Origin: Candidatus Omnitrophota bacterium
GTDB lineage: Bacteria; Omnitrophota; Gorgyraeia; Zapsychrales; Fredricksoniimonadaceae
Direction: 5' to 3'
Length of the DNA: 64,000 nucleotides
NCBI GenBank assembly: GCA_903908245.1
Contig: CAIVRE010000030.1
Span: 11,857 to 75,856 of the forward strand
Shown: piece after piece, positions 8,408-32,923 of the stretch
Layout of the letters: each line of letters opens with the position of its first letter
How positions within the stretch are numbered: the stretch's first letter is position 1
The notes under the pieces: generated by a model
The model's input: only the letters and a program-made list of their open reading frames with translations
Databases searched by the model: none
What the model was told of the DNA's origin: nothing
Translations under genes and position numbers: made by a program

Positions 8408-8408
8408 A

Positions 8409-11888: not shown

Positions 11889-12050
11889 TCAGATCCCGGC
11901 ATAAATAAATGTTGTCACAATAGCAGGGCCGACATAATACGCCGCAAAAACAAGCAAGGACAACACAATAAAGATCGGAAGCAAAAAAGCCAATTTATGC
12001 TTCTTGATCAAATAAGACATTTCCTGAAAGACATACCGCACTTTATTCAT
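11889..12050 (-). CDS. 53-aa membrane mini-protein, DUF5989/SxtK-like (not in ORF track, <60 aa)
   Basis: Manual translation: MNKVRYVFQEMSYLIKKHKLAFLLPIFIVLSLLVFAAYYVGPAIVTTFIYAGI. I recall this pattern (basic patch, TM helix, ...PFIYT..) as the DUF5989/SxtK small proteins that accompany carbamoyltransferase genes. Confidence 0.55.
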   Translation of the reverse strand: MNKVRYVFQEMSYLIKKHKLAFLLPIFIVLSLLVFAAYYVGPAIVTTFIYAGI

Positions 12051-12068
12051 CACCACCCCCTCGATCGG

Positions 12069-12299
12069 TCATGCCTGCCGCAAATGGTCATCCCGACCTG
12101 CTTCATACCCCGACGCGTCACGCCAACACGTGTTCTTCACTTCACATTTCTCTGAAAAAAAACTGCGTTTAAAGATCCTTAAGAATAAAGACGTCAGACC
12201 GAATCCAATAACATATAAGATGGCCAGGACCATAGTGATCAGGATCCTTTGCAGCACTTCCATTAAAGCCTGTATTATCTTTTGAACGCGCTTCAACAT
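12069..12299 (-). CDS. small membrane protein, possibly a short SxtJ-like protein
   Basis: 76-aa ORF with a TM helix (ITMVLAILYVIGFGLTSLFLRIF), between the amidotransferase and the DUF5989-like ORF. Assignment by position and loose motif resemblance only. Confidence 0.4.
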   Translation of the reverse strand: MLKRVQKIIQALMEVLQRILITMVLAILYVIGFGLTSLFLRIFKRSFFSEKCEVKNTCWRDASGYEAGRDDHLRQA

Positions 12300-16274: not shown

Positions 16275-17393
16275 CTACTTGAACAATTCACTTTTCTGCC
16301 GCTCCGCAACGATCACATCAAAATCATCCCGATAAGAACACCACTGCAGGCAGGGCTTGTCGCACTTGCGGATCAACTTGCGCAAAACTCTCGCCCTGCC
16401 GGAATACCAGAGGCTCCTTAAACTGTCGCGCTTGACATCCCCGAAAGTCGCCTCATGCTCGGGCTGTTTAACGCAAAAATACACCTTCCCCTCCTGGACG
16501 ATCTGAATACGGTTGAACCCCGCGTAACAATTCATCTTTTCGGCCCCGGACCGTCCCCGAAGATACTTCTTGATGGACTCCAGATTCTGAAGGCTGTTCG
16601 CGATAAAATCGAAATTGTCCGCGCTGGACTTCTTGTATTGGATGATCGCGTTGATCGCATTATCCAGGACCTGGAACCTTTCAGGCTTCACGAACACATC
16701 CGAACCGGCGTCCGCCTTTGCCTGGTCCGTGTTATCCCCGACAACAGGCTGGAAGATGATCTTGCCTATCTTCAATTGCCGGCAAAGCTCGATCACCCCC
16801 GTCAATTCCTCCAGGTTCTGGTCCATGATCGTGCATACACAGCAGATCGAAGGGATATTTTCCTTCCGTTGCTCTTTCATTTCATTGATCAAATTGATAT
16901 TGGCAATGATCTTGGCCAGATACTTCTGCCCCCGGATCCTGGCAAAAGACTCCTCGGAAGAGGCATCAATGGAAACGCTCAGGCTGCTCAAACGGGACTT
17001 GAACATTTCCTCCACGAGCTTCTCCGACATAATGGTGCCATTGGTGACCACCGTTATCGATGTGATCCCGCAGCTCACGCCGTAAGCCACCAGCTCGAAC
17101 AACCGCGGCTCCAGGAACGGCTCGCCCCCGATCAGGATCAGGGACCTGACCTTCATGTCCGCGCCCTCTCTAATAAGTTTCTTTATCGTATCAATATCCA
17201 GATCGACCGGACGGTTGAGCGCCTTATTGGACTCCATCCGTTCGTGCATACTGCACATCTTGCATCTCAAATTGCAATTGAACGTAAAGTTGATCTGCAA
17301 GGCATCCGCGGGAACAAGGGGATGATCGATCTTCCGGGAAAGCCAGAACAAGAAATTCCTTACAAGCAATCGAATGAACCTGTTGTTATCCAT
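16275..17393 (-). CDS. radical SAM/SPASM-domain protein
   Basis: FNCNLRCKMC cluster; C-terminal Cys-rich SPASM-like region (CYAGF...FCVKQ...CDKPCLQWCSY). Confidence 0.8.
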   Translation of the reverse strand: MDNNRFIRLLVRNFLFWLSRKIDHPLVPADALQINFTFNCNLRCKMCSMHERMESNKALNRPVDLDIDTIKKLIREGADMKVRSLILIGGEPFLEPRLFELVAYGVSCGITSITVVTNGTIMSEKLVEEMFKSRLSSLSVSIDASSEESFARIRGQKYLAKIIANINLINEMKEQRKENIPSICCVCTIMDQNLEELTGVIELCRQLKIGKIIFQPVVGDNTDQAKADAGSDVFVKPERFQVLDNAINAIIQYKKSSADNFDFIANSLQNLESIKKYLRGRSGAEKMNCYAGFNRIQIVQEGKVYFCVKQPEHEATFGDVKRDSLRSLWYSGRARVLRKLIRKCDKPCLQWCSYRDDFDVIVAERQKSELFK

Positions 17394-17434: not shown

Positions 17435-20158
17435 TTATCCCTGAACAACGATCCTTGCCATAAAAGCGACCTTTTCCTGCGGCCGGAGCGTTTTCAGTTC
17501 TTTTTCAAGATACTGCAGGACCCTGCCGCGATGGTAAAGATCCGAATTCACAACATTCATGATCGTGGTGACACTCGGGCCGCAAGGCAATATGCTGACA
17601 TCCGGCAACCCCTCCGGGCCCGAGATGCCGGCCGATACGGTCATAGATCCCCCGGGAACATCTTCCGTATTAACGCCCGAATGAACAACTTCCCAATCTT
17701 CATCAATATTGGCCTTGAACGGAGGCAAAACCCCGCTCACGCCATTGACGGAGAACTTGTCGTATCTTTCCGAGAGCATAACATTGGTCTGAATGCGATC
17801 AAGCTCGATCTCTTCAGCCGCGACCATCCAGGCGCGCAATTCGATCCGATCCCTGTCGAGCAATTTGATCTCCCAATACTGGCTCAACGGTAACCGCAGC
17901 CAATGGCCTTGAGCAACGATCGTATGCTCATCCATACGCTCGACTCTCCAGGCTGCCGTTAAACCGGAAGAATGCCACCTTCCCCTGCATCGCAAAGCAG
18001 TATAGACGCCAAGATTCTTCGTCAACTCTTTGCCTTTCCAAAAAAGCTGCCCCCGGCCCTGGTCAAAACAACAACTCAATTCACCCCGCTCAACCCTGCC
18101 GACAATTTTTTCATTGGCGACAATGTTTTTCCTGCCGAAAGAAGCCTCGACATTAAAACAGGCATATTCCCCGGGCTTGATCCTGCTCCCGCTCTCGCTC
18201 TCGACCTTCCAGACGCGGATCTCACGGGATCGGGAAAAAATATCGGAATTAAAGACCTTTACAAAATTATCCAGGCCATCCGCCCCCCTGAGCACCACGG
18301 CAGGGACATCATTGATCCGGCTGAACATCCCGACTTCAGACTGCCGGACACACCCGTGAAGGACATCAACCTCATACTCGAGAAAATCAGCCGAAAAATC
18401 CTTCTCAAGAGGGCCGCAGAACCATGATGTGTATCCTTTGACAAATACCCAGTTGAGCAAATGCTGTTCAATGGAGACTTCTTCACTGACCTCTATAAAA
18501 ACTTTAAACCGGAACGCATCTTCCCCGGCCGCCTCGATCTCCCAGACCTGGATAACCGGCAGATCCGGCCAGGACACCTTGATGATCATTTTATCATCGG
18601 AGACCTTTTCAACCGTCCATTGCGCAAACGTAGACAAATACCTTCGTCCGCCAACGTAAACAGAAGACACAACGGAATTCAACGCCACCGGGACAGGCCC
18701 CCGGCGAACAATATCGCATCGCCCGTTATTAAAGATCAGATTCACCGTTTTAAGCGATACGGTATAACCTGCCCGCAAGCCGTCCAGATATTGCTCCAGG
18801 TCCGGGACATTCAAAAGGAACTTGCCCGAAAACCAGTGCGAATGGTCCGTTTGCGGCATATTATGCTGCGCGCCGGATATCCTGTATTGCAGGACCCTTG
18901 AATCAACGATAGAGTCGGCATTCAATATCTGGGCCCTGCACTGATCATCCCGGCATTCCAGGATCAATCCAGGCAATCCCGCGTCATCGGGCCCCGAAGG
19001 CATCACGCCCATGCATTGATGGGGAATATTCTTTTCAATGAACGACTGCCAGTCCTTGCTGTTCTGGTCAATGGGCGGGAAATGCCCTTTCTCGGAAGGA
19101 GTGAACCAGTCGGCATACTCCTTCTGCAATAAGATATTAATATATCCTTCCTGAATATCCAAAGCCTCATCCGCCTCGACCGCCACGTCCCATTTCAACC
19201 CGTGATCTTCGGTGATCTCTATTTTCCAGACCAGGGTCAACGCCAGCTGATATATTCTTCCCCGGGCCACGAACCGTGTTTCGCCCTCTTTCTGCACTTC
19301 CCAATCCGCCTGAAAAGAATTGTAATTCCTGCCTTCGATCTGAAACCGGGTATATCCCCCGGAATTCGACGTGACCGGCCTGTCGTTCCAATTAAAGAAT
19401 ATCCGGCCGTTATTAAAAATAACCGAAAGAGGGCCTTTAGCCAACACTGCGACTTTCTCCCTGGCGCCGATCATCTGCGTGTAAAAAGGGATGACTTTCT
19501 CGGCCAGGCCGTCTTTCATTATCCTTCCGTCTTTAACAAGAATGACCCTTTGGCAAAGCCTGCGCAGCATATTCATGTCATGCGTCACACAAATGATCGT
19601 CGTGCCGGAATCTTTAAGCTCAAATATCCTTTTAATACACTTCTTTTGAAAGAACTCATCCCCCACGGCGAGAATATCGTCGATAACCAGGATCTCGGGC
19701 TCAACATGGATCGCGGCGGAGAACGCCAGGCGTACGAACATGCCCTGGGAATAGCATTTTACCGGAGCGTCGATGAACCGGCCGATATCGGCAAAATGGA
19801 TGATCCGCTCCACGATCTCCGCCTGCCTGGCCTGATCGATGCCGGACAAATTCAAATTAAGATATACATTCTCCCGTCCGGTCAATTCCGGCTGGAAGCC
19901 GGCCCCCATTTCCAGAAGCCCTGCCACTCTTCCGGCAACCCTGGCTTCTCCCCGGTCCGGCTTCAAAAGCCCTGCAATGACCTTCAGGAGCGTTGTCTTG
20001 CCGGCCCCGTTCTCTCCGATGATCCCCAGTGTTTCACCGGCCTCGATCTGGAAACTGATCCCTTTCAAGGCCCAGAAATTCTCCCAGGAAACCTTGCCGC
20101 CGACAACGAACTTGATCCGGTAAATTTCCCAGACATCCTTCAGATCTACAATAGCCAT
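17435..20158 (-). CDS. wzt: Wzt/TagH-like polysaccharide-export ABC ATP-binding protein (907 aa) with long C-terminal extension holding three tandem ~200-aa repeats
   Basis: Walker A GENGAGKTT, ABC signature YSQGM, Walker B ILVIDD in first ~240 aa. Repeats start IFNNGRIFFNWNDRPV / LIFNNGRCDIVRRGPV / QLFWKGKELTKNLGV, with conserved W..E.....G.W..LP..Q.WEI positions. Confidence 0.85.
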   Translation of the reverse strand: MAIVDLKDVWEIYRIKFVVGGKVSWENFWALKGISFQIEAGETLGIIGENGAGKTTLLKVIAGLLKPDRGEARVAGRVAGLLEMGAGFQPELTGRENVYLNLNLSGIDQARQAEIVERIIHFADIGRFIDAPVKCYSQGMFVRLAFSAAIHVEPEILVIDDILAVGDEFFQKKCIKRIFELKDSGTTIICVTHDMNMLRRLCQRVILVKDGRIMKDGLAEKVIPFYTQMIGAREKVAVLAKGPLSVIFNNGRIFFNWNDRPVTSNSGGYTRFQIEGRNYNSFQADWEVQKEGETRFVARGRIYQLALTLVWKIEITEDHGLKWDVAVEADEALDIQEGYINILLQKEYADWFTPSEKGHFPPIDQNSKDWQSFIEKNIPHQCMGVMPSGPDDAGLPGLILECRDDQCRAQILNADSIVDSRVLQYRISGAQHNMPQTDHSHWFSGKFLLNVPDLEQYLDGLRAGYTVSLKTVNLIFNNGRCDIVRRGPVPVALNSVVSSVYVGGRRYLSTFAQWTVEKVSDDKMIIKVSWPDLPVIQVWEIEAAGEDAFRFKVFIEVSEEVSIEQHLLNWVFVKGYTSWFCGPLEKDFSADFLEYEVDVLHGCVRQSEVGMFSRINDVPAVVLRGADGLDNFVKVFNSDIFSRSREIRVWKVESESGSRIKPGEYACFNVEASFGRKNIVANEKIVGRVERGELSCCFDQGRGQLFWKGKELTKNLGVYTALRCRGRWHSSGLTAAWRVERMDEHTIVAQGHWLRLPLSQYWEIKLLDRDRIELRAWMVAAEEIELDRIQTNVMLSERYDKFSVNGVSGVLPPFKANIDEDWEVVHSGVNTEDVPGGSMTVSAGISGPEGLPDVSILPCGPSVTTIMNVVNSDLYHRGRVLQYLEKELKTLRPQEKVAFMARIVVQG

Positions 20159-20206: not shown

Positions 20207-21685
20207 TTAATGCGCCCCGGCCTCTTCCAACAAAGTAACGCCAAAAACATCGCGCAAAATAACCCGGGCAATATTCCCGGCCAACATGGTGTTGCCCAGG
20301 TCCGTACAATGGCCAAAGTCCCCGGCGAACCTGTCCCTGAAAACCTGCTCGAAACGGTATTTCTTCAACGCATCCTTGAACAGCCTTTCATTATCGACAA
20401 AACTGACATTCTGGCGTTGGTCCGCAGGGAAAATCTGTTTTAACGGCTCTATATTGCGCATGGCATACTGCACACACACAAGGCGGATCCCGTGCTGATC
20501 GAGCAATTTCTTTATTTTATGGTAATTTTCCACAGTCACCGACGCATACCCTTGCGGCGCTACGGCATACCCCCGCGCAAGATAATCCTCACTCAAATCA
20601 AATTTCCCAAGGACACGGTAAACATGAGCCAGGCCGAAATAAGGGCTGACATCAATGATCCCACCCGGCTTATTAAGCTCTATGGATTCTTTATACCGCA
20701 CCACCGCCTCATCATACCGGCCCTGCGCCGCGGCCACTTCCCCGGCGAACAGGCTTATCCATCCGGCATGACAATGATCCATAAGGGCCTTCAGCAAAAC
20801 TTCCGCTTCTGCATACTTATGCATGGCGATCAATTGGACAAATAGCATCCTCAGGTCCCCGCTCTCTCGAGGGCATAACACAAATTCTTTTTTATATTTC
20901 TCGATCATCCGTTCGAGCATCTTTTGCTGCTCTTTCGGCTCACACAGCCACATCAACCTGAAATAAGCATCGGAATTCCCGGGATTGATCCTGATGGCCT
21001 TATGGAACGCAAATTTTGCCGCATTGACCTTGCCCTGAGCGTTAAGCTCCATACCGCGTTTCACATAAAAACTGTCATCTCCCGGCGACACAACCGCCGG
21101 CTGCGGCATTGTTGCGCCGCCTGAGGCAACGGGCAACACCCCTGGTCGAGGCTCTCCTGGCGCCTCCTGCTTCTTTTCCCCCCACTTAGCCTGAATATGC
21201 AGGCCAAGCAATTGCATAAGCTTGTATGTTTTTAAAGCCTGGAAAAAATTCTGCCCGTGCGCATTGAACCCGGCGGGCATGTGCCTGGCACCCGCGTCAT
21301 TAATGCCGATCATGGCCACCACCGCATCAGGCCTGTATTTTCTGATATTACTCTCCATCCTTTCAAGGATAAGATCCGTATTGGTCGCCGACAAACCTTC
21401 ATCAATAACGCTGAACTGTGTTTTGATCCGCTGGGCATTGAGGATCTTTTCAAGGAACCGCGGGTACTGCCCCTGCGTCGTCGATTCCCCGACACACATG
21501 ATCCGGTAGGCCGCCCCGTTCTTACTAGCGGACCAATTCTTGTACTGCTGTACAGCCAGAATAACAAAACCCGCTGTCTGCAGCCCTATTTCAAGAATGA
21601 CCAAAGTAAGGAATACGCCAAACAACATCAGCGCTATTCTCTGGCCTGGAGAACTTACCGTTGGGGGTTTTTGATCCTTTTCCAT
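20207..21685 (-). CDS. membrane-anchored SGNH hydrolase with inserted TPR repeats (paralog 2)
   Basis: TM helix, CVGESTT, GIND, DFGHCT blocks and TPR repeats; collinear with 4898-6193 and 21721-23208. Confidence 0.75.
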   Translation of the reverse strand: MEKDQKPPTVSSPGQRIALMLFGVFLTLVILEIGLQTAGFVILAVQQYKNWSASKNGAAYRIMCVGESTTQGQYPRFLEKILNAQRIKTQFSVIDEGLSATNTDLILERMESNIRKYRPDAVVAMIGINDAGARHMPAGFNAHGQNFFQALKTYKLMQLLGLHIQAKWGEKKQEAPGEPRPGVLPVASGGATMPQPAVVSPGDDSFYVKRGMELNAQGKVNAAKFAFHKAIRINPGNSDAYFRLMWLCEPKEQQKMLERMIEKYKKEFVLCPRESGDLRMLFVQLIAMHKYAEAEVLLKALMDHCHAGWISLFAGEVAAAQGRYDEAVVRYKESIELNKPGGIIDVSPYFGLAHVYRVLGKFDLSEDYLARGYAVAPQGYASVTVENYHKIKKLLDQHGIRLVCVQYAMRNIEPLKQIFPADQRQNVSFVDNERLFKDALKKYRFEQVFRDRFAGDFGHCTDLGNTMLAGNIARVILRDVFGVTLLEEAGAH

Positions 21686-21720
21686 AAAATCCGCTCCATT
21701 GAACAGGACACTTCCGAGAT

Positions 21721-23208
21721 CTATCTCATCTTCAAGACTTCTTTTATAACAACACCGGCTATCTGCTCCGCCAAAAGCTTATTCCCCAGACTGGTGCAAT
21801 GCCCGAAATCACCTCCGAACATATCCAGGAAATATTCATGGATATGCCCGCCAGCTACCGCCGCTTTGAACACCCCCTCATTATCAACAAAAAAAACTCC
21901 GTCCGAGGACGCAAAGATCTTCTTAAGCACCGAGACTTTACGCATGGGATACTGCACGCAGACCAGCTTGATCTTTCTTCGATCCAATATCGCCTTCAAA
22001 TTCCGATAATTTGTAACAGTAAACAAACTGTAGAAATCATCGTCCAAAGACTTTACCGTCGGCTCATAAACCGCGGCCTCTTTGGCCTTCCCCATCTCCT
22101 GATAAAACAGCATCAACCTTCGATAACAACGGTCATTCTTCGGGTTTTTTTCGATATACCATTTTAATTCTTTCTCGGCATCGGCATATCGCTTCTGGAT
22201 CATATAAATATAAACCAAAGAAAAAGTCACATTCTCGTTTTTATTATTGAAAAACTCCGCCTTCTTATACGCCGCTTCCGCCTGCTCATATTTCTTCTGA
22301 AACAAATAAAGATCTCCCAATGAGCAATATACCACTGCATCACCGGATGTTAATTCAATGACCTTTAATAACAAGGCCTCCACAGACTCCCAGCGGTTGG
22401 TGCTCCTATAGATCCATGACAACCCGTAATAAGCCTGGGCATTCCGGGGGTTCTTTGCCAAAACCTCATTGAACGCCTTCTCTGCCTGTTCCTGGTCCCC
22501 CCTCGAAAAAGCATCCCACCCGTCGGATAAGAACTTCTGTTCATCCGCCGAATGACGGCCGCCCGAAACACCAAGGAGCTCCTGACCGCTTGAAAGCCCA
22601 AAATTCTTCAATTTCTTCCCTTTTACCTCCGCCGGCGGCTCAGACAAGCCAGGAGCCTGCACGGCAGAAGGCTTTGCCGTACGGATCTCTTGCATTTTTG
22701 CTGTCAAATGAAGCCGCAAGAATCGAGCTAATTTACAAACACGCAAAGAGAACAACCACTGAACAAACCCCGATGAACCCTTTACCTGCTGCGGCATATG
22801 CAGCCCCTGATCGTTGATCCCCATCATCACCACGACCAGGTCCGGCTTATATTTATCCAGATTCACTTCCAGTTGCTCCAGGATCACATCGGTGTTAACC
22901 GAAGGCATCCCTTTATCAATAACGCTAAATTTTATATCCTTACCACGACGATTAAGCGCCTCTTCAAGAAAAGGGGGATATTGCTTTGCGGTAGTAGACT
23001 CCCCCAAACACATAATACGATAACCATTGGCCCTTAAAGAACGCAAATTCTCGGACTCCTGAAGAAAATAGAATATTGCGCCGCCTATACGCAGCCCTGA
23101 TTCCAGAAGGACAAGACACAGGAATATCCCGAATAAAACAAGCCCTGTTTTCTGCAATAATGTCGTCCTGAACTCACTGCGCGGCTCATTGCTCATAAGA
23201 TCGATCAA
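21721..23208 (-). CDS. membrane-anchored SGNH hydrolase with inserted TPR repeats (paralog 3)
   Basis: TM helix, CLGESTT, GINDQG, DFGHCT blocks and TPR repeats. Confidence 0.75.
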   Translation of the reverse strand: MIDLMSNEPRSEFRTTLLQKTGLVLFGIFLCLVLLESGLRIGGAIFYFLQESENLRSLRANGYRIMCLGESTTAKQYPPFLEEALNRRGKDIKFSVIDKGMPSVNTDVILEQLEVNLDKYKPDLVVVMMGINDQGLHMPQQVKGSSGFVQWLFSLRVCKLARFLRLHLTAKMQEIRTAKPSAVQAPGLSEPPAEVKGKKLKNFGLSSGQELLGVSGGRHSADEQKFLSDGWDAFSRGDQEQAEKAFNEVLAKNPRNAQAYYGLSWIYRSTNRWESVEALLLKVIELTSGDAVVYCSLGDLYLFQKKYEQAEAAYKKAEFFNNKNENVTFSLVYIYMIQKRYADAEKELKWYIEKNPKNDRCYRRLMLFYQEMGKAKEAAVYEPTVKSLDDDFYSLFTVTNYRNLKAILDRRKIKLVCVQYPMRKVSVLKKIFASSDGVFFVDNEGVFKAAVAGGHIHEYFLDMFGGDFGHCTSLGNKLLAEQIAGVVIKEVLKMR

Positions 23209-23214
23209 TTGCCC

Positions 23215-24408
23215 CTATCCGATATTCTTTAACTTCTTTTGCAGGATCTCCCTGGAAACCCTTATCTCTTTTAGCAACTCGACACATTGAGACTTGTCCG
23301 CTCCGCGCCATAACACGAACCAAAGCCTTGCCTTATTGGCTATCTTTCCAAGAACATATTTCGCGTTCTGATACACCCGATAATACATCCTCTTATAAAA
23401 ACTCCATGTGCCAAGCTTTTGCGCTTTCAGCGCGATAAGCCGATCGAATTCAGGCTTTCCAAAATTCTGGTCATAACAGCTCATCATGCATCCGCCACAA
23501 CCTTTTGTCACTATCTCCCGGCGCAATTGATCATGCTTCGGCGAGCCCCAGATCGCGGACAATCTTTTCCCCTTAACATTACCGATAACCCTGTTCGACA
23601 ATACCCAGCAGGGATAAACATCTCCCCCCGCCGAGACAGGGCACGAACTGAAGATCGCTGAACAGCCTTTCTGCTCCGCATTGATCCTGGCCTCTCCGCA
23701 CAAATAGGAAGGGATATTCTGAAGATACTCCGAAGGATTGGTCATGATCCTGTATTCTTTTGCCAGCCGCTCCACTTCCGCCATGCTTCGCTCAATATCT
23801 TCCCGCAGCTCTTTTGGCGCAAAAAATCCCGACCGGATCGCTTTGTCTTTTATAAAAATATCGCTGAAAGGCTGGAACTTTACCGTCGTAACCCCGAATT
23901 GATGCGCCAGCTCGATCACCCGCGGCAACGCCGCATAGTTCTGCCGGCTGACGATCGAAGCGATCGTTGTTTCGATCTTATACCTGGAAAGATTTCTCAA
24001 AGCATCCACGGCTTTGACAAAACTTCCTTTCCCTCTTAAAGAGTCGTGTGTCTGCTCATCTCCCTCGATCGAAATATTAACAACCCCGATCCCGGCCAGG
24101 CTCAGTTTATGCGCCACTTCATCCGTCAGTAAAGTACCATTGGACGCCAGGCAGGTATTGATCCTCGACCGGCTGACAGAAGCGATCAGGTCAAAAATAT
24201 CTTCACGCAAGAGCGGCTCACCGCCGCTGAACACAATACTGCGCGGGCAAAGCCGGACAGCGTCCGCGATCAGGCACTGCATCTCTTGCGCGCTTAATTC
24301 CTCATTGTTGCCGGATCCCGGGATCTGGCACATCGCGCAGCGCAAATTGCAGCGGTTCGTGATCGACAGGATCACTTCATTTAGCCGGTGTTCCATAGTG
24401 TTTATCAC
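23215..24408 (-). CDS. radical SAM/SPASM-domain protein
   Basis: ITNRCNLRCAMC; Gly-rich FSGGEPLLR; C-terminal Cys cluster (CSAIFSSCP...CWVL...CGGCMMSC). Confidence 0.8.
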   Translation of the reverse strand: MINTMEHRLNEVILSITNRCNLRCAMCQIPGSGNNEELSAQEMQCLIADAVRLCPRSIVFSGGEPLLREDIFDLIASVSRSRINTCLASNGTLLTDEVAHKLSLAGIGVVNISIEGDEQTHDSLRGKGSFVKAVDALRNLSRYKIETTIASIVSRQNYAALPRVIELAHQFGVTTVKFQPFSDIFIKDKAIRSGFFAPKELREDIERSMAEVERLAKEYRIMTNPSEYLQNIPSYLCGEARINAEQKGCSAIFSSCPVSAGGDVYPCWVLSNRVIGNVKGKRLSAIWGSPKHDQLRREIVTKGCGGCMMSCYDQNFGKPEFDRLIALKAQKLGTWSFYKRMYYRVYQNAKYVLGKIANKARLWFVLWRGADKSQCVELLKEIRVSREILQKKLKNIG

Positions 24409-25552
24409 CTAAAACGACCTCTTCATATTTATCCATTGAACCGATCCCCTCTTCCAGCGCCTGCCTCTTTTCCGCCTTTGTCAATGATGAACGGTCCAAC
24501 GCTGTCACAAAATCATTCACGACCATCTTTAAAGAATCCGCCCCCGGCCGCGCCCAGCATGTTTGCAGGCACGGCTTATCGCACGCGCGCATTCGCTCCC
24601 TGGCCATCCTCGCGCTCTCCGTATGCAGGCAATCATTCAGGCTCATATCCTTGATATTGCCGAACGAGGGGCCGCAACTGCGCACAGCACCGTCGGGACC
24701 GACATCAACGAATACGAAAGGATTACACTTCCAGTCGCTCTTGGTCAGCGAACCCTGAAAATATCCTAACCACTGGTAAGGATCATGCAGGAATGCGACC
24801 AGGCCGGAGCTCTTCTGATATTCAACGATCCGGTCGACCTGGCTTTTAAAAACGCCCAGCAATTCCGGCGTGATCCAGAGCCCCCCGCCTTTGATGGTGT
24901 TCTGCATATCGGCTTGCGCCACGATCACCGGATGATACACCAGGCATTCCACCCCAACCTCCCTGGCCAAAGGAATGATGTCGTATAACTCATGAACGTT
25001 CTCTTTCATCATGGTGACCCAGGCCGAGATCTGCGGGCCATGCGAGGCCTTCTTTTTCTCCTCAGACAAAAAACGCAACGCCCTGATCGCCTTAGAATAA
25101 GCCCCTTCCGTCCCCCGGATATAGTCGTGCGTCCTGGCACAGGCCCCGTCGAGAGAAACCGCAATATTGCTCAGGCCGGAGTCAATGACCCTGGCCGCGA
25201 ATTGCGGAGTATCAATGAGGCTGCCGTTGGTCACTGCCTCGGTCTTCAGACCCAACGAAACCGAGTAACAAATGATCTCAAAAATGTCTTTTCTTAAAAA
25301 TATCTCCCCGCCGGTGAACAGGACCGTGCAATCCGTCCCCCAGCCGGCCACTTCATCCAGGCTCTTTTTTAATACATTTATGTCCAGCTCCTGGTCCTGC
25401 AGGACCTTCTTTACCCCGCACATCTGACAATTAAAATTACACTTGTGCAATAAGCTGAAAAAAACCCAATACGGCCTGGCGAAAGGCCGGTTCAGAGCTT
25501 CGGAAAAATAATAATCCAGGTTCTTCTGAAATTCACCGACGATATTGGACAT
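24377..25552 (-). CDS. radical SAM/SPASM-domain protein
   Basis: HKCNFNCQMC; FTGGEIFLRKD; C-terminal Cys-rich region (CNPFVF...CGPSF...CDKPCLQTC). Confidence 0.8.
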   Translation of the reverse strand: MSNIVGEFQKNLDYYFSEALNRPFARPYWVFFSLLHKCNFNCQMCGVKKVLQDQELDINVLKKSLDEVAGWGTDCTVLFTGGEIFLRKDIFEIICYSVSLGLKTEAVTNGSLIDTPQFAARVIDSGLSNIAVSLDGACARTHDYIRGTEGAYSKAIRALRFLSEEKKKASHGPQISAWVTMMKENVHELYDIIPLAREVGVECLVYHPVIVAQADMQNTIKGGGLWITPELLGVFKSQVDRIVEYQKSSGLVAFLHDPYQWLGYFQGSLTKSDWKCNPFVFVDVGPDGAVRSCGPSFGNIKDMSLNDCLHTESARMARERMRACDKPCLQTCWARPGADSLKMVVNDFVTALDRSSLTKAEKRQALEEGIGSMDKYEEVVLGDKHYGTPAK

Positions 25553-27503: not shown

Positions 27504-28283
27504 TCAGATCTTCTTTAAAATACCGGGTTCGAATTTAATGAATATCGCCAGACCCAGGGACAAACTGGCCATCGCGAATAACACGACCTGAATGAATACC
27601 GCCGGCCCCGGCAGCACCCCTTCGAAAATGATCTTTTGATAGAAAGCGATATACGGCGTCAGCGGATTGACGTTGTATATCCAATGGAACTGCGCGGGGA
27701 CCATTGCCATCGAATAAAAAACAGGGGTGACCCAGAACCAGAACATCAGTACCACGCTTAAAAGATGCTCAATATCCCGAAAAATAATATTGAGAACAGA
27801 TAACGCCAGGCAGAGACCCGCCGTTAAACAAAGAAGCAGGACAAAGATCAGCGGGAGCAGCCAGGCCAGAATAATGATCTTTGGATTAAAGAACAGGAAG
27901 ATCGGGTACATCACGACCCAACCGATAAGAAAATTAAGGAAATTCGCGATGACCGATGCCAGCGGAAAGATCACAACAGGGACATTGTATTGCCGCATAA
28001 TGCCCTGTCGATTCAATATGGAAGCGGGCGCCTCGGACAATGCGTTCGAAAAGAACATCCACGGGATAATGCCTGACAGGACAAAGAACGGATAATTGGC
28101 AATGCCGGCCTTAAAGACCTGGGTAAAAACAAAAGCGATCGCGGACATGATCAAAAGAGGATTGATGACCGCCCAGAAGATCCCCAAAAGAGAGCCGGCA
28201 TACCGGCTCCTCAATTGCGCGATCGACAGGCTCCACAACGCATGTCGAAAATAAAAAATGTTTTTAACCAAACCTTTATCCAT
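27504..28283 (-). CDS. wzm: ABC-2-type polysaccharide-export permease (Wzm/KpsM/TagG-like)
   Basis: 259-aa polytopic membrane protein with the ABC-2 pattern (FWAVINPLLIMSAIAFVF...). Confidence 0.8.
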   Translation of the reverse strand: MDKGLVKNIFYFRHALWSLSIAQLRSRYAGSLLGIFWAVINPLLIMSAIAFVFTQVFKAGIANYPFFVLSGIIPWMFFSNALSEAPASILNRQGIMRQYNVPVVIFPLASVIANFLNFLIGWVVMYPIFLFFNPKIIILAWLLPLIFVLLLCLTAGLCLALSVLNIIFRDIEHLLSVVLMFWFWVTPVFYSMAMVPAQFHWIYNVNPLTPYIAFYQKIIFEGVLPGPAVFIQVVLFAMASLSLGLAIFIKFEPGILKKI

Positions 28284-29577
28284 GGGCCAACCGCTCCCCG
28301 GTCTTTATCCCGTCGAGGATCGCATCTTCCATCGACATATAACGCCAGCTCCCGTAGCGCCCGCAAGTCAGGACCCGATGCGCCTGGAGGAACTTGAGGA
28401 TCTCCCCCCGCGCCGCCGCATAACCCTTGTCATACACAGGATAAGCGTACTCAATATCATTGATGTCGCGAACAAGCACCGCATCGCCCGCTGACAGCAA
28501 TCCGACTTTCTCCAGGTCCTGTTCAATGCGCGCAACGATCCCGGCCTTATCCAGCGGTTTCTGCCTGGAATACGAAACCTCCGCGTACAAAGAGCTTTTC
28601 CCCGCCGGAACAAGATCGGACGAGAAATTATGATAAAACCCCACCCGAAAAAAGCTGATATCTTTCTGTGGAAAATAGGCCCAATGTTTCTTGCTCGGAC
28701 AGGCCTGCCGCAACCCGAGGTTCAAATTGAACAGGGAGTTCCAGCGCAAACGGCCGAACGCGGCCTTGATCCCCCTGGGCAGGCCGCTGATCATGCCGGA
28801 CAATTCCGGCAGGGGGATCGTCGAGACCAAATGAGCGTAATCCTGCTTCACGCCATTGGAAAACTCGACCCGCTGCTTCTTCAGGTCGATCGTCCGGACC
28901 TTAAACCCCGTATGGATATTATCCAGGCCCGCCTTTAACGCCCGGGGAAGCGCTTCGATCCCGCCTTTGCGGGGATACCAGAAATGCGCGTTATAACCCA
29001 AAGGCTCCTGCCGGCCCGGACCGCCGGACACCTGGCGCAGCGTGGGTTGAGGCACAAACCCTTCCGTCCAGGCGCACGTCATCATCCTTGGAGAGACCGT
29101 CCAGAACTTCGTGTTATACGGGACCATAAAATGCTTCGCGATCCCGTCCCCAAACGTCCCCTTGATCCAGCGCGCAAGGTCCGCACCCGCCTTTACACGC
29201 GAACCCCGGCGCGCCTTGATAAAACCGTCAAGGCACTCTTTCCGGACATTGTCCGGCAACGCCGAAAGATTGGCCTGAAAAGGATACCCGATGAACCGCT
29301 CATGCGAATAGACCCAAGCGCTTCTCTGATGCCCCGCCAGGCCTTCTTTCAGCAATCCATTGACCAGGCCCAAAGACCCTTTATGCCTGAAATGGAGCAA
29401 ATGTCCGTCGATATCAAACGTGAACCCTTTGGCCTTCCTTGACCGGCACAACCCCCCGACCTCAGGTTCTTTTTCATAAACATGGCACGCCTGCCCCTGC
29501 CCCTGCCCCTGCAGATGCCTGGCCGCGCTCAGGCCCGCCAGCCCCGCGCCAAGGATAACATACCCCTTATCTGTCAT
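28276..29577 (-). CDS. FAD/NAD(P)-binding oxidoreductase, UDP-galactopyranose-mutase-like
   Basis: N-terminal Rossmann GxGxxG (VILGAGLAGLSAA), EKEPEVGG; resemblance to Glf/amine-oxidase folds. Precise function uncertain. Confidence 0.5.
   Translation of the reverse strand: MTDKGYVILGAGLAGLSAARHLQGQGQGQACHVYEKEPEVGGLCRSRKAKGFTFDIDGHLLHFRHKGSLGLVNGLLKEGLAGHQRSAWVYSHERFIGYPFQANLSALPDNVRKECLDGFIKARRGSRVKAGADLARWIKGTFGDGIAKHFMVPYNTKFWTVSPRMMTCAWTEGFVPQPTLRQVSGGPGRQEPLGYNAHFWYPRKGGIEALPRALKAGLDNIHTGFKVRTIDLKKQRVEFSNGVKQDYAHLVSTIPLPELSGMISGLPRGIKAAFGRLRWNSLFNLNLGLRQACPSKKHWAYFPQKDISFFRVGFYHNFSSDLVPAGKSSLYAEVSYSRQKPLDKAGIVARIEQDLEKVGLLSAGDAVLVRDINDIEYAYPVYDKGYAAARGEILKFLQAHRVLTCGRYGSWRYMSMEDAILDGIKTGERLAHG
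29491..29512. repeat. hexanucleotide microsatellite (ctgccc)x3.5 encoding GQGQGQ in the oxidoreductase
   Basis: Seen directly: ctgcccctgcccctgcccctgc. Confidence 0.7.
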
Positions 29578-30553
29578 TGCGCTCCGCCTTCATCAGCACC
29601 CTGAAGAAAATATAACTTGTCAGCAAGACCGCCAATATCAACAGCCCGCCCGCCCAGTCATCGCATTGGCTAAGAATGATCCCGCAAACCGCGGCGAACA
29701 ACGACAAGCCCAGCAGGACCAACAACGCGCTTTTGCGCGTCAGGCCCAGCGCGACCAGCCGAAGCGCCATATGATCATCACTTTTATTGAACGGAAGAAT
29801 GCGCTTGCTGCAACGAAAATAAATAAGGACGGCTGTTTCCAGAAGAGGGACCCAGAACAGAAGGATCGGGCTCAATAACGCGACCGGCTCACCCCTTCTG
29901 GCATAACTGACCATTAACGCCAATGCCGCCAGGACAAACCCCAGGAAATGGCTCCCGGCATTGCCCAGATAGATCCTTGCCGGAGGAAAATTAAAGAACC
30001 CAAAACCCGTGATCACCGCGAAAAGGCCCAGCGCCAATATCCGGGCATTCACATCGGGATAAAAGAACGTAAGGGCGAATATGGCCCCTGTCACCGTCAA
30101 GGCCACGCCGGCGCTTAACCCGTCGATGACGTCGAGCAGGTTAAAGGCATTGGTGATCCCGATGATCCACAAGAACGTGACCAGGGCATTACCCCAGTCA
30201 TTAAGATAGATCATATGCGTCCTGACATCGATCAGGATCAGCACGACCGCACATACAGACTGCAGCAGGAGCTTCTGGACAACCGACGCCTCTTTCAGGT
30301 CGTCCATCACCCCGAACGCCAGCATCGCCAGGGATATGCCCAGGACACTCATGATCCTGCCGGGATCAATGCCGAAACCAATAACCCCTAGGACAGAGGA
30401 AACCACCAGAGCGCCGCCTATCCCGATCCCGCCGACAAGCGCGATCTCGCCGGATACCAGGACACGGGTCCTGAACGCCAGGCGGCGCAACACCACCATC
30501 AATAACAGGCTGCAAACCAGTGCCGACGAAGCGACCAGGTAATATTTAAACAT
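29567..30553 (-). CDS. polyprenyl-phosphate N-acetylhexosamine-1-phosphate transferase (WecA/WbpL/MraY family, GT4 membrane)
   Basis: Polytopic membrane protein with VMDDLKE and NAFNLLDVIDGLSAG motifs. Confidence 0.8.
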   Translation of the reverse strand: MFKYYLVASSALVCSLLLMVVLRRLAFRTRVLVSGEIALVGGIGIGGALVVSSVLGVIGFGIDPGRIMSVLGISLAMLAFGVMDDLKEASVVQKLLLQSVCAVVLILIDVRTHMIYLNDWGNALVTFLWIIGITNAFNLLDVIDGLSAGVALTVTGAIFALTFFYPDVNARILALGLFAVITGFGFFNFPPARIYLGNAGSHFLGFVLAALALMVSYARRGEPVALLSPILLFWVPLLETAVLIYFRCSKRILPFNKSDDHMALRLVALGLTRKSALLVLLGLSLFAAVCGIILSQCDDWAGGLLILAVLLTSYIFFRVLMKAERNDR

Positions 30554-31709
30554 TCACCGCCCGCATGTTCGAATAAAGCGCCTCGATCTTCCGGACCGCA
30601 TGACCGGAAGTGAACTCGCTGCCCGCAATAAATTCGGCAGCTCTTCGGGATACCGTCATCCTCAGCTCAGGGTTTCCCAATAATTCCAGGACCCTGTCCC
30701 GCATACCCCGGATATCTCCTGTCGGGACCAGGTATCCGGTATCCCCCTGCACAATAACATCCCGAATGCCTCCCGTATCAGTCGCGACCACCGCAACACC
30801 GGCCGCCATGGACTCCAGGACAGCGACCGGAAGGCCTTCCCATAACGATGTCAGGACGAACACATCCAGGGCGGAAAGGACGGACCCGACATCCCGCCGC
30901 CAGCCCGTCAATACAATATCCTTCTCCAACCCGGCCTCACGAACAAGCGCGGTGATCGCGCCGCGCAGGATCCCGTCACCAGCCAGCACAAACTTTACGC
31001 CTGGCAATGCCGTCTTAAGTTCAGCCGCCAGCCTGATAAAATCCAGCGGCGCTTTCTGAGGCTTGAAACAGGCGACCATCCCGACCACAAGGTCCAGCTC
31101 ACCGAACCCGAACTCCCTGCGCGCCCGTCCGCGCTGATCTTCACGCTTAAAGTCTTCCCTGTTGATGCCGCAACGAATGACGCAATAGCCCTCAAGAGGA
31201 ACGATCCCGTTCTCCCGCCCCCGCTGTTCATCCCGCGCCGAAACCACGATCAATCGATGGGTAAATCCGGCACAAAACTTTTCCAGGAACAGGAACGATC
31301 GATAAATCCATCCCGATTGATGCTCATGAAAACTCCAGCCATGAACGGTATGAATGATCCGCCTGACCCCGGCCGCCCCGGCCGCCAGCCTGCCCAGCAC
31401 CCCGGCTTTTGAACTGTGCGTATGGACCAGGCCTATCTTATTTTTTTTTATAAAGAAATACAAAGAAATAAACGTAAAAAGATCCCTGAACGGATCGATA
31501 CGGCGCTCCAGGAAAGGCGAACGGAAAACACTCAAACCCGCGATGGCCAAAGCCTCGTCGACCAGGAACCCGTCCCGCGCGGTAAAAAGAAAAACATTGA
31601 ACTTGCGGCGGTCAATGCCCCGGATCAGGCTTAATAAATGCGTTTGAGCTCCACCCAGCTCAAGCTTGGTGATAACATACAGCAAATTGATCTTGGTCTC
31701 TGTCACCAT
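30546..31709 (-). CDS. GT4 (group 1) glycosyltransferase
   Basis: LLYVITKLELGGAQTHLLSL...; C-terminal EGLPVAVLESMAAGVAVVATDTGG motif. Confidence 0.8.
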   Translation of the reverse strand: MVTETKINLLYVITKLELGGAQTHLLSLIRGIDRRKFNVFLFTARDGFLVDEALAIAGLSVFRSPFLERRIDPFRDLFTFISLYFFIKKNKIGLVHTHSSKAGVLGRLAAGAAGVRRIIHTVHGWSFHEHQSGWIYRSFLFLEKFCAGFTHRLIVVSARDEQRGRENGIVPLEGYCVIRCGINREDFKREDQRGRARREFGFGELDLVVGMVACFKPQKAPLDFIRLAAELKTALPGVKFVLAGDGILRGAITALVREAGLEKDIVLTGWRRDVGSVLSALDVFVLTSLWEGLPVAVLESMAAGVAVVATDTGGIRDVIVQGDTGYLVPTGDIRGMRDRVLELLGNPELRMTVSRRAAEFIAGSEFTSGHAVRKIEALYSNMRAVNV

Positions 31710-31756: not shown

Positions 31757-32923
31757 ATGTTTATATTATTACTATTTTTTATAACTCTCCGGCCGTTCAT
31801 CTGTTCTTTTGCCTTTCTTGAACCCGAGATCATTTATGCGACACTGCTGTCCCTCTTTCTTCTTTCCTGGATATTTATAAAGAAGATCGAGCTGGCGACC
31901 TCCCCCAGGATGACCATCGCCCTTTCCCTGTTCCTGCTTGCCCTGGCCGTATCCCTGATATTCTCCAAAAACCAGATGTTCGCGGCCATCCACACCTGTC
32001 AGTTCATTAACGGCCTCCTGCTTTTCCTTGTTTGCCGATCCCTGCCCCGTGAAAAGATCCCTGCGGTCCTGCTGTCAATGCTGATAACCGCCCTGTTCAT
32101 TTGCGCCCTGGCATTATATCAATCCTTCGGAAAGGCACCCGAAGCCCTCACATCAAAAAATATCATCGACCAGATAGGCATCACTTATATCGAACAACAC
32201 CGGGCCTACGCTCCTTTTATCACACCCAACGCGCTGGGGGGCTACCTCATCCTCATCATCCCCCTTGCCTTCACCCTCAAAAACCGGGCCTGGCTGGCGG
32301 CCCCCCTGATCCTTACCCTCCTCCTGACCAAATCCCTGGGAGCGATCATCAGTTTCACCGCAGCCACAACACTATATTTTTATTTTCAAGGCAACTTAAA
32401 GAAAAAACGCATGAGGACTATCCTGCTCGGGCTTATCGCCGGCGCTCTCATCATCTTCCTGATCAGGGCACAGGCGAACCAGCACATATTCCAGCCATCA
32501 TTCTCTGTTCAAATGCGCCTGGAATACTGGCGGCTAACCTGGAAACTCATCAGCGCATATCCTTTAACAGGAACAGGCCCGGGCTGTTTCGACCTGCCCG
32601 ATGCGCGCTACACCCACAATTCTTACCTGCAGCTCTGGGCAGAAACAGGGATAATAGGCATAACATCTTTCCTTTACCTGCTGTTTACCCTGTTCAAATC
32701 GGGACGGGGCATCTTAAAAGAAGGGCTTGATAAAAACCTGGCCGCCGGATTAATATGGGCCTCCGTCGGCTTCTTTATCCACAACTTTTTTGATTTTACG
32801 TTCTTTCTGCCGGAAGTTTCGTTTATGTGTTGCGTTGTCCTGGGGTTGCTCTTGAACCGCTCGCCCCTCTCCGGCGCAGCGCTGATAAAAGATAATGGCA
32901 CCGGGCAAGAAAGATCCCGATAA
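31757..32923 (+). CDS. O-antigen ligase/polymerase-like membrane protein (Wzy_C domain)
   Basis: ~10 predicted TM helices; HNSYLQLWAETGIIG-type motif. Only plus-strand gene; AT-rich divergent promoter region 31710-31756 shared with the GT4 gene. Confidence 0.7.
   Translation: MFILLLFFITLRPFICSFAFLEPEIIYATLLSLFLLSWIFIKKIELATSPRMTIALSLFLLALAVSLIFSKNQMFAAIHTCQFINGLLLFLVCRSLPREKIPAVLLSMLITALFICALALYQSFGKAPEALTSKNIIDQIGITYIEQHRAYAPFITPNALGGYLILIIPLAFTLKNRAWLAAPLILTLLLTKSLGAIISFTAATTLYFYFQGNLKKKRMRTILLGLIAGALIIFLIRAQANQHIFQPSFSVQMRLEYWRLTWKLISAYPLTGTGPGCFDLPDARYTHNSYLQLWAETGIIGITSFLYLLFTLFKSGRGILKEGLDKNLAAGLIWASVGFFIHNFFDFTFFLPEVSFMCCVVLGLLLNRSPLSGAALIKDNGTGQERSR

What the first reader, a model, noticed from the sequence alone, without database searches (positions are those of the whole stretch)
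17435..20158. Giant Wzt (907 aa) with triplicated C-terminal domain, encoded 7 kb from its Wzm partner
Canonical Wzt ATPases carry one C-terminal carbohydrate-binding module that recognises the capped glycan terminus. Here the ABC domain is followed by three tandem divergent repeats. wzm (27504-28283) is separated from wzt by SGNH-TPR and radical SAM genes. Together these suggest a multivalent or novel substrate-recognition module, possibly reading radical-SAM-installed terminal modifications. No WbdD-like terminating kinase/methyltransferase is visible.
Basis: partly seen in the sequence, partly recalled or inferred. Interest (0 to 1): 0.55.

Follow-up and report, generated by a model that had tools for sequence, protein, structure and literature searches.

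The report
Glycan exporter ATPase with three-domain tail
The 907-residue protein is a genuine sugar-polymer export ATPase whose usual sugar-recognition tail has been replaced by three old copies of an undescribed beta-sheet domain, and in related genomes the same domain is also attached to the radical-SAM enzymes that probably decorate the polymer.

Summary
ORF 17435-20158 (-) encodes 907 aa: a Wzt-type ABC ATPase domain (aa 1-235, 46-48% identical to Aquifex aeolicus Wzt) followed by three ~215-aa repeats (Smith-Waterman z = 19-29 against shuffles).

The repeats are not the canonical Wzt carbohydrate-binding domain. Pfam Wzt_C gives no match, and a profile-profile comparison gives 0.13% probability. 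AlphaFold2 (pLDDT 92) predicts a ~19-strand sandwich that best matches galactose-mutarotase-like "supersandwich" domains (YidC P1, GH94, OpgG).

The domain has no match in Pfam, NCBIfam or PDB sequences. It is rare (564 of 1.84 billion cluster representatives) and occurs in 1 to 7-8 tandem copies on Wzt ATPases of Omnitrophota-like MAGs. It is also fused to radical-SAM enzymes, GT-C glycosyltransferases and a sulfatase.

The triplication is ancient and position-specific. Most members, including this one, carry Asp in place of the catalytic Walker-B Glu.

In relatives wzm lies directly upstream of wzt, so the 7-kb separation here is a rearrangement within the operon. All 11 related loci examined (not the window) are rich in radical-SAM genes.

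Best reading: a new glycan-recognition array that replaces the canonical domain. Binding itself is inferred, not shown.

The parts
17435..20158 (-). Giant wzt gene, 907 aa: ATPase domain plus three tandem beta-domains
19454..20158 (-). Nucleotide-binding domain, aa 1-235, Wzt/TagH subfamily. Closest solved relative is A. aeolicus Wzt.
   Evidence: E = 2e-66; 46-48% identity, TM 0.77-0.85 to NBD-only chains
19676..19681 (-). Walker-B D160-D161. Asp occupies the position of the catalytic Glu (A. aeolicus E167).
19472..19504 (-). C-terminal 'hinge' helix of the NBD (aa 219-229), containing the invariant Y226
18791..19444 (-). Repeat R1 (aa 239-456), the NBD-proximal type
18119..18751 (-). Repeat R2 (aa 470-680), the internal type
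17441..18094 (-). Repeat R3 (aa 689-906), the terminal type. AF2 pLDDT 92.3; galactose-mutarotase-like supersandwich.
27504..28283 (-). wzm, the ABC-2 permease partner
   Evidence: adjacent to giant wzt in relatives
28276..29577 (-). Amine-oxidase-family flavoprotein. Conserved immediately upstream of wzm in relatives.
29567..31709 (-). WecA/MraY-family initiating transferase (29567-30553) and GT1 glycosyltransferase (30546-31709)
   Evidence: same pair in L003 and L007
25576..27486 (-). GT2-radical SAM fusion protein. In relatives it lies directly downstream of giant wzt (49-55% identity).
23215..25552 (-). Two radical SAM/SPASM genes (23215-24408 and 24377-25552)
20207..23208 (-). Two SGNH-hydrolase/TPR genes (20207-21685 and 21721-23208)
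   Evidence: the same pair sits upstream of wzt in L001
13441..17393 (-). Radical SAM/SPASM gene (16275-17393) and two B12-binding radical SAM genes (14844-16262 and 13441-14949), directly downstream of wzt
   Evidence: orthologues in relatives
31757..32923 (+). Wzy_C / O-antigen-ligase-like membrane protein

Best explanation
The gene encodes the ATPase subunit of a Wzm/Wzt-type ABC-2 exporter for a lipid-linked (probably undecaprenyl-diphosphate-linked) surface glycan. The glycan is built and heavily tailored in the cytoplasm by a cluster of at least 35 kb that contains eight radical-SAM genes.

In this lineage the canonical jelly-roll carbohydrate-binding domain of Wzt has been replaced. In its place is an array of a different, previously undescribed ~215-aa all-beta domain with a galactose-mutarotase-like supersandwich fold.

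I infer that this domain is a glycan-recognition module. The three anciently diverged copies per protomer (six per Wzt dimer) would capture the finished or modified polymer in the cytoplasm and hand it to the Wzm channel. This is functionally analogous to the canonical domain, but multivalent.
- R1 appears specialised for the position next to the ATPase hinge helix.
- R3 appears specialised for the distal end.
- Internal copies vary in number between relatives.

Related clusters attach the same module to the radical-SAM tailoring enzymes, to GT-C transferases and to a sulfatase, which fits one shared ligand.

Asp in place of the catalytic Glu in both ATP sites of the homodimer predicts slow hydrolysis and a long-lived ATP-bound state, possibly gated by glycan binding.

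Shown here: the architecture, fold prediction, family distribution, synteny, absence of homology to Wzt_C, and the Asp substitution. Inferred: glycan binding, what is recognised, and the kinetic consequence.
For: - The ATPase domain is a true Wzt: NCBIfam TagH/Wzt hits; PDB best match A. aeolicus Wzt at E = 2e-66; Foldseek top hits are WzmWzt.
- Its closest relatives outside the family are ~404-aa Wzt proteins carrying PF14524 at ~50% identity. This indicates a domain replacement inside the clade that carries the canonical domain.
- A Wzm gene, a WecA-like transferase, glycosyltransferases, sugar aminotransferases, epimerases and a ligase-like gene sit in the same cluster.
- The R3 model is confident (pLDDT 92.3, pTM 0.89). 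It matches supersandwich domains of carbohydrate-active proteins and YidC P1 at E = 1e-6 to 1e-4 and TM 0.5-0.66. The full-length model gives all three repeats the same strand pattern.
- The domain is conserved and modular: 564 hits, 447 of them at E <= 1e-10, with 1 to 7-8 copies per protein.
- It is fused to radical SAM, B12-radical SAM, PMT_2 GT-C and sulfatase domains. In L003, L004, L014 and L015 it is fused to radical-SAM or neighbouring genes next to wzt.
- Repeat positions are orthologous in 117 of 117 cases. N-terminal copies are R1-type and C-terminal copies R3-type across copy-number variants.
- All 11 related loci with flanking sequence carry several radical-SAM genes. Two control loci with canonical Wzt_C carry none, and one of them has a methyltransferase-glycosyltransferase fusion instead.
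- The Asp substitution is seen in 35 of 35 close relatives where the motif was recognised, against Glu in 96 of 97 canonical Wzt.
Against:
- The supersandwich fold is not exclusively carbohydrate-binding. YidC P1 is among the best matches.
- The control for the radical-SAM association is only two loci.
- The Asp substitution is not universal in the domain family. Among the 90 NBD-bearing representatives, 19 matched the motif pattern with Glu, mostly in 1-2-copy members, and the 8-copy P0093 also has Glu by a looser pattern.
- The nature of the exported polymer is unknown.
Confidence: 0.55

Rival explanations
1. Docking scaffold. The domains mediate protein-protein (homotypic or heterotypic) contacts. 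They would assemble radical-SAM enzymes, glycosyltransferases and the exporter into one membrane-associated complex, rather than binding the glycan.
For: The same domain is fused to radical-SAM enzymes encoded next to wzt in L003, L004 and L015 and to other enzymes. Canonical Wzt C-terminal domains dimerise (PMC9445017). YidC P1, a top structural match, is a protein-interaction domain.
Against: In the window and in most relatives (L001, L002, L007, L008, L010-L012) no radical-SAM enzyme carries the domain, so homotypic docking cannot be general. Fusion to GT-C enzymes, whose C-terminal soluble domains are periplasmic in characterised members, would put the domain on the other side of the membrane; topology was not resolved here.
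Confidence: 0.18
2. Molecular ruler or spacer. Only the distal R3-type domain binds the chain terminus. The variable number of internal domains sets the distance from the membrane and hence the chain length accepted for export.
For: Copy number varies from 1 to 7-8. The R1-type is conserved at the N-terminal end and the R3-type at the C-terminal end, with extra copies internal. No separate terminator or ruler protein is visible in the window.
Against: Internal R2 copies are about as conserved as R1 and R3 (mean within-position identity 0.35 against 0.39 and 0.41) and keep most shared motif residues. That is more than a passive spacer would need. No chain-length data exist.
Confidence: 0.15
3. 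Triplicated canonical Wzt carbohydrate-binding module. The repeats would be divergent copies of the PF14524 jelly-roll domain.
For: The position C-terminal to a Wzt ATPase domain matches. The domains are all-beta. Foldseek alignments to full-length A. aeolicus Wzt extend beyond the ATPase domain.
Against: There is no PF14524 hit at E <= 1. hhalign gives 0.13% probability against 20 canonical Wzt. The unit is ~215 aa with ~19 strands, against ~150 aa for the canonical domain. No Wzt C-terminal domain appears in the top 50 PDB fold matches. The extended alignments have rmsd 10-14 A and TM of only 0.52-0.57.
Confidence: 0.04
4. Catalytic domains. The repeats would be enzymes, for example mutarotase/epimerase-like, acting on the glycan before export.
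For: Aldose 1-epimerase (1lur) is among the fold matches. There are conserved polar residues (N104, N183, D185, R191 in R3 numbering).
Against: No conserved His/Glu catalytic pair is seen across copies. Only W74 and Y111 are invariant across architectures. There is no sequence match to any enzyme family. In glycoside hydrolases this fold is usually a non-catalytic accessory domain.
Confidence: 0.05

Closest known systems
Wzt with canonical C-terminal carbohydrate-binding domain (E. coli O9a, Raoultella terrigena/Klebsiella O12, Aquifex aeolicus WzmWzt; Pfam Wzt_C PF14524)
   Same: The ATPase domain is 46-50% identical. There is a Wzm ABC-2 partner, a cytoplasmic C-terminal beta-domain extension after the hinge helix, and a cluster with a WecA-like initiator and glycosyltransferases. 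The likely role is recruiting a completed lipid-linked glycan to the channel.
   Different: The extension is a different domain: a supersandwich of ~215 aa with no sequence or profile similarity to Wzt_C. It is present in three (1 to 7-8 in relatives) tandem, anciently diverged copies. The catalytic Glu is replaced by Asp. No WbdD/WbbB-type terminator is visible. Radical-SAM enzymes dominate the cluster.
Galactose-mutarotase-like supersandwich domains (YidC periplasmic P1 domain; N-terminal domains of GH94 phosphorylases and cyclic beta-1,2-glucan synthase; OpgG; GH2 domain 5; aldose 1-epimerase)
   Same: Predicted fold (Foldseek E = 1e-6 to 1e-4, TM 0.5-0.66). Most matches are parts of carbohydrate-active proteins.
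   Different: About 10% sequence identity and no detectable sequence homology. None of these occurs in tandem arrays on an ABC ATPase.
RiPP recognition elements (RRE) on radical-SAM maturases
   Same: A conceptual analogy only: one substrate-recognition module shared among the tailoring enzymes of a pathway, including radical SAM/SPASM enzymes.
   Different: An RRE is a small winged-helix peptide-binding domain. Here the module is a large beta-sandwich in a glycan pathway, and it is also carried by the exporter.
WbdD coiled-coil molecular ruler of the E. coli O9a pathway
   Same: A possible role for a length-variable cytoplasmic element in deciding when a chain is exported.
   Different: WbdD is a separate kinase/methyltransferase with a coiled coil. 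Here the variable element is a domain array on the transporter, and no catalytic terminator is present.

Membership tests
Wzt (ATPase of Wzm/Wzt ABC-2 glycan exporters) | Nucleotide-binding domain of the Wzt/TagH subfamily | tested here: met
   NCBIfam TagH/Wzt models at E = 1e-45 to 1e-53. PDB A. aeolicus Wzt at E = 2e-66. Foldseek top hits are WzmWzt.
Wzt (ATPase of Wzm/Wzt ABC-2 glycan exporters) | Cognate ABC-2 permease (Wzm) encoded in the same cluster | tested here: met
   27504-28283 matches ABC2_membrane and Wzm/RfbD-like models. It is directly adjacent to giant wzt in L002, L003, L004, L007, L010, L011, L012 and L015.
Wzt (ATPase of Wzm/Wzt ABC-2 glycan exporters) | Cluster encodes assembly of a polyprenol-linked glycan (initiating phosphoglycosyl transferase plus glycosyltransferases) | tested here: met
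   A Glycos_transf_4 (WecA/MraY family) gene, GT1, several GT2, DegT aminotransferases and epimerases.
Wzt (ATPase of Wzm/Wzt ABC-2 glycan exporters) | Canonical catalytic Glu after the Walker-B Asp | tested here: not met
   D160-D161 aligns with A. aeolicus D166-E167. Asp is found in 35 of 35 close relatives, against Glu in 96 of 97 canonical Wzt.
Wzt (ATPase of Wzm/Wzt ABC-2 glycan exporters) | ATP-driven export of a lipid-linked polysaccharide | not testable with these tools
   Requires biochemistry or genetics.
Canonical Wzt carbohydrate-binding domain (Pfam Wzt_C, PF14524) | Sequence match to PF14524 | tested here: not met
   No hit at E <= 1. The precomputed Pfam annotation of all homologues lists PF00005 only.
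Canonical Wzt carbohydrate-binding domain (Pfam Wzt_C, PF14524) | Profile-level homology to C-terminal domains of canonical Wzt | tested here: not met
   hhalign of A4 against A6 gives probability 0.13% and E = 0.44.
Canonical Wzt carbohydrate-binding domain (Pfam Wzt_C, PF14524) | Jelly-roll beta-sandwich of ~150 aa that forms a strand-swapped dimer | tested here: not met
   The model is a ~215-aa, ~19-strand sandwich whose best matches are supersandwich domains. Dimerisation was not testable.
Canonical Wzt carbohydrate-binding domain (Pfam Wzt_C, PF14524) | Binds the capped non-reducing terminus of the glycan | not testable with these tools
   Needs binding assays.
Galactose-mutarotase-like supersandwich fold | Structural similarity (TM >= 0.5) to several members | tested here: met
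   Foldseek against PDB gave 78 hits at E <= 1e-3. The top hits are 8rfe, 3wvf/3bs6 (YidC P1), GH94, 9awt, 1txk and 1lur, with query-normalised TM 0.5-0.66.
Galactose-mutarotase-like supersandwich fold | Detectable sequence homology to a member | tested here: not met
   phmmer and a profile search against PDB sequences found nothing below E = 0.03 and E = 1.4 respectively.
Terminator-coupled (WbdD/WbbB-type) ABC pathway | Dedicated chain-terminating kinase, methyltransferase or Kdo-transferase in the cluster | tested here: not met
   No such Pfam domain in the ORFs scanned between 774 and 36117. Only the window was available. B12-radical SAM methylase-type enzymes and a frameshifted carbamoyltransferase are alternative candidates for installing a cap.

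The most novel reading that the evidence does not exclude
The supersandwich array is a substrate-holding and quality-control platform shared by the exporter and the tailoring enzymes. In this reading it keeps the nascent lipid-linked glycan at the transporter while radical-SAM enzymes modify it. The differentiated R1, R2 and R3 sites each read a different modification or chain segment. Only a fully tailored chain of the right length then triggers the slow Asp-variant ATPase to export. This would be a glycan counterpart of leader-peptide-guided RiPP maturation combined with a domain-count ruler.
Probability: 0.2. Interest if true: 0.8.

Novelty: new variant of a known kind. Interest (0 to 1): 0.62.

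Why it matters
ABC-transporter-dependent glycan export is understood from a few proteobacterial and Aquifex systems. In those systems one jelly-roll domain reads a terminal cap.

This locus shows that a whole uncultured lineage replaced that module with an unrelated, copy-number-variable domain array. The same lineage altered the catalytic site of the ATPase and shares the array's domain with radical-SAM tailoring enzymes.

The finding gives three things:
- a new candidate carbohydrate-binding module family;
- a testable link between radical-SAM sugar chemistry and export licensing;
- a natural series of 1 to 7-8 copies with which to test how exporters sense polymer completion and length.

Tried and rejected
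- BLASTP self-comparison of the C-terminal region found no internal hits. Smith-Waterman with shuffles and HMMs were needed.
- The search for related loci with the diverse alignment A4 failed because it had no conserved stretch. The R3-only alignment A5 worked, but it relies on one peptide pattern, so 11 loci is a lower bound.
- A crude hydropathy and positive-inside analysis of the GT-C fusion proteins could not decide which side of the membrane their domain copies face.
- I first read the invariant Y226 as the equivalent of A. aeolicus Tyr233, which contacts the O antigen. After correcting the +1 offset between SEQRES index and author numbering (checked with E167, N202 and K205), Y226 aligns with Tyr232 and T227 with Tyr233. 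The claim is dropped. Only conservation of the hinge helix remains.
- Literature searches for radical SAM + Wzt, Omnitrophota + radical SAM and Omnitrophota + O-antigen found no description of this architecture.
- A RiPP-type peptide product was considered because of the SPASM enzymes. I rejected it as the main product because the cluster has a WecA-like initiator, many glycosyltransferases, sugar-nucleotide enzymes, a ligase-like gene and a Wzt-clade ATPase.
Full report
**1. The observation**

The ORF at 17435..20158 on the minus strand is 907 aa. Its start codon is supported by an alignment with 38 homologues that begin at the same motif. The identical protein is encoded on nine independently assembled contigs, so it is not an assembly artefact.

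Residues 1-235 match Pfam ABC_tran and NCBIfam TagH/Wzt models. Nothing in Pfam or NCBIfam matches residues 236-907, and Wzt_C (PF14524) does not match.

A default BLASTP self-comparison was blank. Smith-Waterman alignment of the three thirds gave scores of 120-181 against a shuffle mean of 31 and SD of 5, so z = 19-29. A family HMM delimits the three domains at aa 239-456, 470-680 and 689-906. The repeats are 22-27% identical to one another.

The triplication is real. Between it and wzt lie a GT2-radical SAM fusion, two radical SAM/SPASM genes and two SGNH-TPR genes.

**2. The ATPase domain**

It is a bona fide Wzt.
- The best PDB sequence matches are A. aeolicus Wzt (E = 2e-66), then TarH/TagH and mycobacterial RfbE.
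- The full-length AF2 model (pLDDT 84.9) matches WzmWzt structures first, at 46-48% identity over the ATPase domain.
- A search with the ATPase domain alone returns fragments of the same family first. After those come ~404-aa proteins carrying PF14524 at ~50% identity.

The ATPase domain therefore sits inside the Wzt clade that carries the canonical binding domain, and the C-terminal module has been exchanged.

One unexpected feature is the residue after the Walker-B Asp. It is the catalytic Glu (E167) in A. aeolicus and Asp (D161) here. Asp is found in 35 of 35 close relatives where the motif was recognised, against Glu in 96 of 97 canonical Wzt. It is found in all 4- and 5-copy members where the motif was found, but only in about half of the 1-2-copy members. 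Lack of the catalytic Glu is the hallmark of degenerate, slowly hydrolysing ABC sites (PMC7544095). In a Wzt homodimer both sites would be of this kind.

**3. The repeat unit**

AF2 on R3 with 39 orthologues gave pLDDT 92.3 and pTM 0.89, with about 19 strands and no helices.

Foldseek against the PDB gave 78 hits at E <= 1e-3. The top hits are the cyclic beta-1,2-glucan synthase, the YidC periplasmic P1 domain, GH94 phosphorylases, a GH36-type galactosaminidase, GH2 domain 5, OpgG, aldose 1-epimerase and heparinase III. Query-normalised TM is 0.5-0.66 and sequence identity about 10%. This is the galactose-mutarotase-like supersandwich.

No Wzt C-terminal domain appears in the top 50. Canonical Wzt C-terminal domains are jelly rolls that dimerise by strand swap (PMC9445017).

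A profile of 15 domain copies against an alignment of 20 canonical Wzt proteins gave hhalign probability 0.13%. Neither the single sequence nor the profile finds any PDB sequence.

The domain is therefore an undescribed sequence family with a fold different from the canonical Wzt module.

**4. Distribution and architecture**

A profile of the three window repeats found 564 of 1.84 billion cluster representatives at E <= 1e-3.

Of the best 150, 90 have a Wzt-type ATPase domain. Their copy numbers are:

| Copies | Proteins |
|---|---|
| 1 | 3 |
| 2 | 24 |
| 3 | 39 |
| 4 | 12 |
| 5 | 11 |
| 7-8 | 1 |

Many of the others are N-terminally truncated fragments. Some are different architectures: PMT_2 (GT-C) glycosyltransferases with 2-4 C-terminal copies, radical SAM/SPASM and B12-radical SAM enzymes with 2-3 copies, and a sulfatase with one.

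In related loci the genes next to wzt carry the domain themselves. In L003 and L004 these are radical-SAM genes. L014 and L015 also have extra domain-bearing ORFs beside wzt. In the window only Wzt has it.

Named sources are Candidatus Omnitrophota/Omnitrophica MAGs and some MAGs labelled Planctomycetia.

**5. Age and positional specialisation**

Across 39 three-copy proteins, each repeat's nearest neighbour in another protein is at the same position in 117 of 117 cases. Mean identity is 35-41% within a position and 23-25% between positions.

Position-specific HMMs show that proteins with an ATPase domain almost always begin with an R1-type copy and end with an R3-type copy. Extra copies are internal.

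The triplication predates the family's radiation, and the ends of the array are specialised.

**6. Context**

The glycan cluster runs from before 774 to about 36117, where dnaJ-dnaK-grpE-hrcA begin. It contains:
- eight radical-SAM genes (four SPASM, three B12-binding, one fused to GT2);
- three SGNH-TPR genes;
- two DegT aminotransferases, a WbuX-like amidotransferase and a carbamoyltransferase;
- a WecA-like transferase, a GT1 and several GT2 glycosyltransferases;
- two epimerase/dehydratases and a ligase-like gene.

In relatives the order is amine-oxidase-like flavoprotein, Wzm, giant Wzt, GT2-radical SAM, radical SAM/SPASM, B12-radical SAM and so on. The window has the same genes rearranged. 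The closest relative, L001, shares the arrangement SGNH-TPR x2, Wzt, radical SAM/SPASM.

All 11 related loci with flanking sequence have several radical-SAM genes. Two control loci with canonical Wzt_C have none, and one of them has a methyltransferase-GT fusion next to wzt.

No second Wzt-type ATPase is in the window.

**7. Interpretation**

The most economical reading is that the array is the substrate-recognition part of the exporter. It would be analogous in role to the canonical binding domain, but built from another fold and multivalent.

The module is also borne by enzymes acting on the same polymer. A single-residue change in the ATPase may tie hydrolysis to substrate binding.

Glycan binding, the identity of the ligand (a terminal cap or internal modified residues) and the kinetic effect are all inferences.

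The rivals are a docking scaffold, a domain-count ruler, a catalytic role and a divergent canonical module. They are scored separately. The first two are compatible with parts of the main reading.

**8. Novelty**

The text library held here contains no description of this domain, of tandem arrays on Wzt, or of the link to radical SAM.

It is a new variant of a known kind, ABC-transporter-dependent glycan export with a substrate-recognition extension. It includes what appears to be a new domain family.

Noticed in passing
window 19676-19681 (aa D160-D161): Asp replaces the catalytic Walker-B Glu of the Wzt ATPase. The change is shared by most multi-copy family members and is absent from canonical Wzt. 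In a homodimer both ATP sites would be of the 'degenerate' type.
   Followed up: partly
window 10215-11865 (-): The NodU/CmcH-type carbamoyltransferase is split into N-domain (10813-11865) and C-domain (10215-10781) ORFs in different frames. The downstream frame reads on upstream through a typical '...AYLGPGY...' motif. This is a frameshift near 10815-10860: either a pseudogene or an assembly error.
   Followed up: partly
window 25576-27486 (-): A GT2 glycosyltransferase fused to a radical-SAM domain (636 aa). It is 49-55% identical across relatives, which is more conserved than Wzt itself, and normally lies directly downstream of giant wzt. Its chemistry is unknown.
   Followed up: partly
window 28276-29577 (-): An amine-oxidase-family flavoprotein (PRK07208-like, with a weak UDP-galactopyranose-mutase hit). 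Its reading frame overlaps both wzm and the WecA-like gene. It is conserved immediately upstream of wzm in most relatives. Its role is unknown; a sugar-nucleotide mutase or oxidase is possible.
   Followed up: partly
window 4898-6193, 20207-21685, 21721-23208 (-): Three paralogous SGNH-hydrolase/TPR proteins in one glycan cluster. They may be O-acyl transferases or esterases acting on the polymer. The pair next to wzt is conserved in L001.
   Followed up: no
window 11889-12056 and 12069-12299 (-): Two small ORFs (55 and 76 aa), each with a hydrophobic helix, lie between the WbuX-like gene and the carbamoyltransferase. They are possibly small membrane proteins of the kind often found beside carbamoyltransferases.
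   Followed up: no
L003 16237-16872 and 16918-17553: Two nearly identical tandem copies of the supersandwich domain at the N-terminus of a 1095-aa radical SAM/SPASM protein. This is a recent duplication and shows that the module is still expanding.
   Followed up: no
L002 16877-19442; protein P0155: A sulfatase gene sits next to a radical SAM/SPASM gene (an arrangement like an anaerobic sulfatase maturase) in a related cluster. Elsewhere a sulfatase is fused to one copy of the domain. This hints that sulfated glycans may be involved in some relatives.
   Followed up: no
window 13441-14949 and 14844-16262 (-): Two adjacent B12-binding radical-SAM ORFs overlap by 106 nt as listed. The downstream gene's true start is probably further in. 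Together with 7037-8566 there are three class-B (methylase-type) radical-SAM genes, which are candidates for installing C- or O-methyl groups on the glycan.
   Followed up: no
window 1-64000: GC skew is negative in every 2-kb bin (-0.09 to -0.24), and nearly all long ORFs are on the minus strand. This is a strong, uniform strand bias across the whole window.
   Followed up: no
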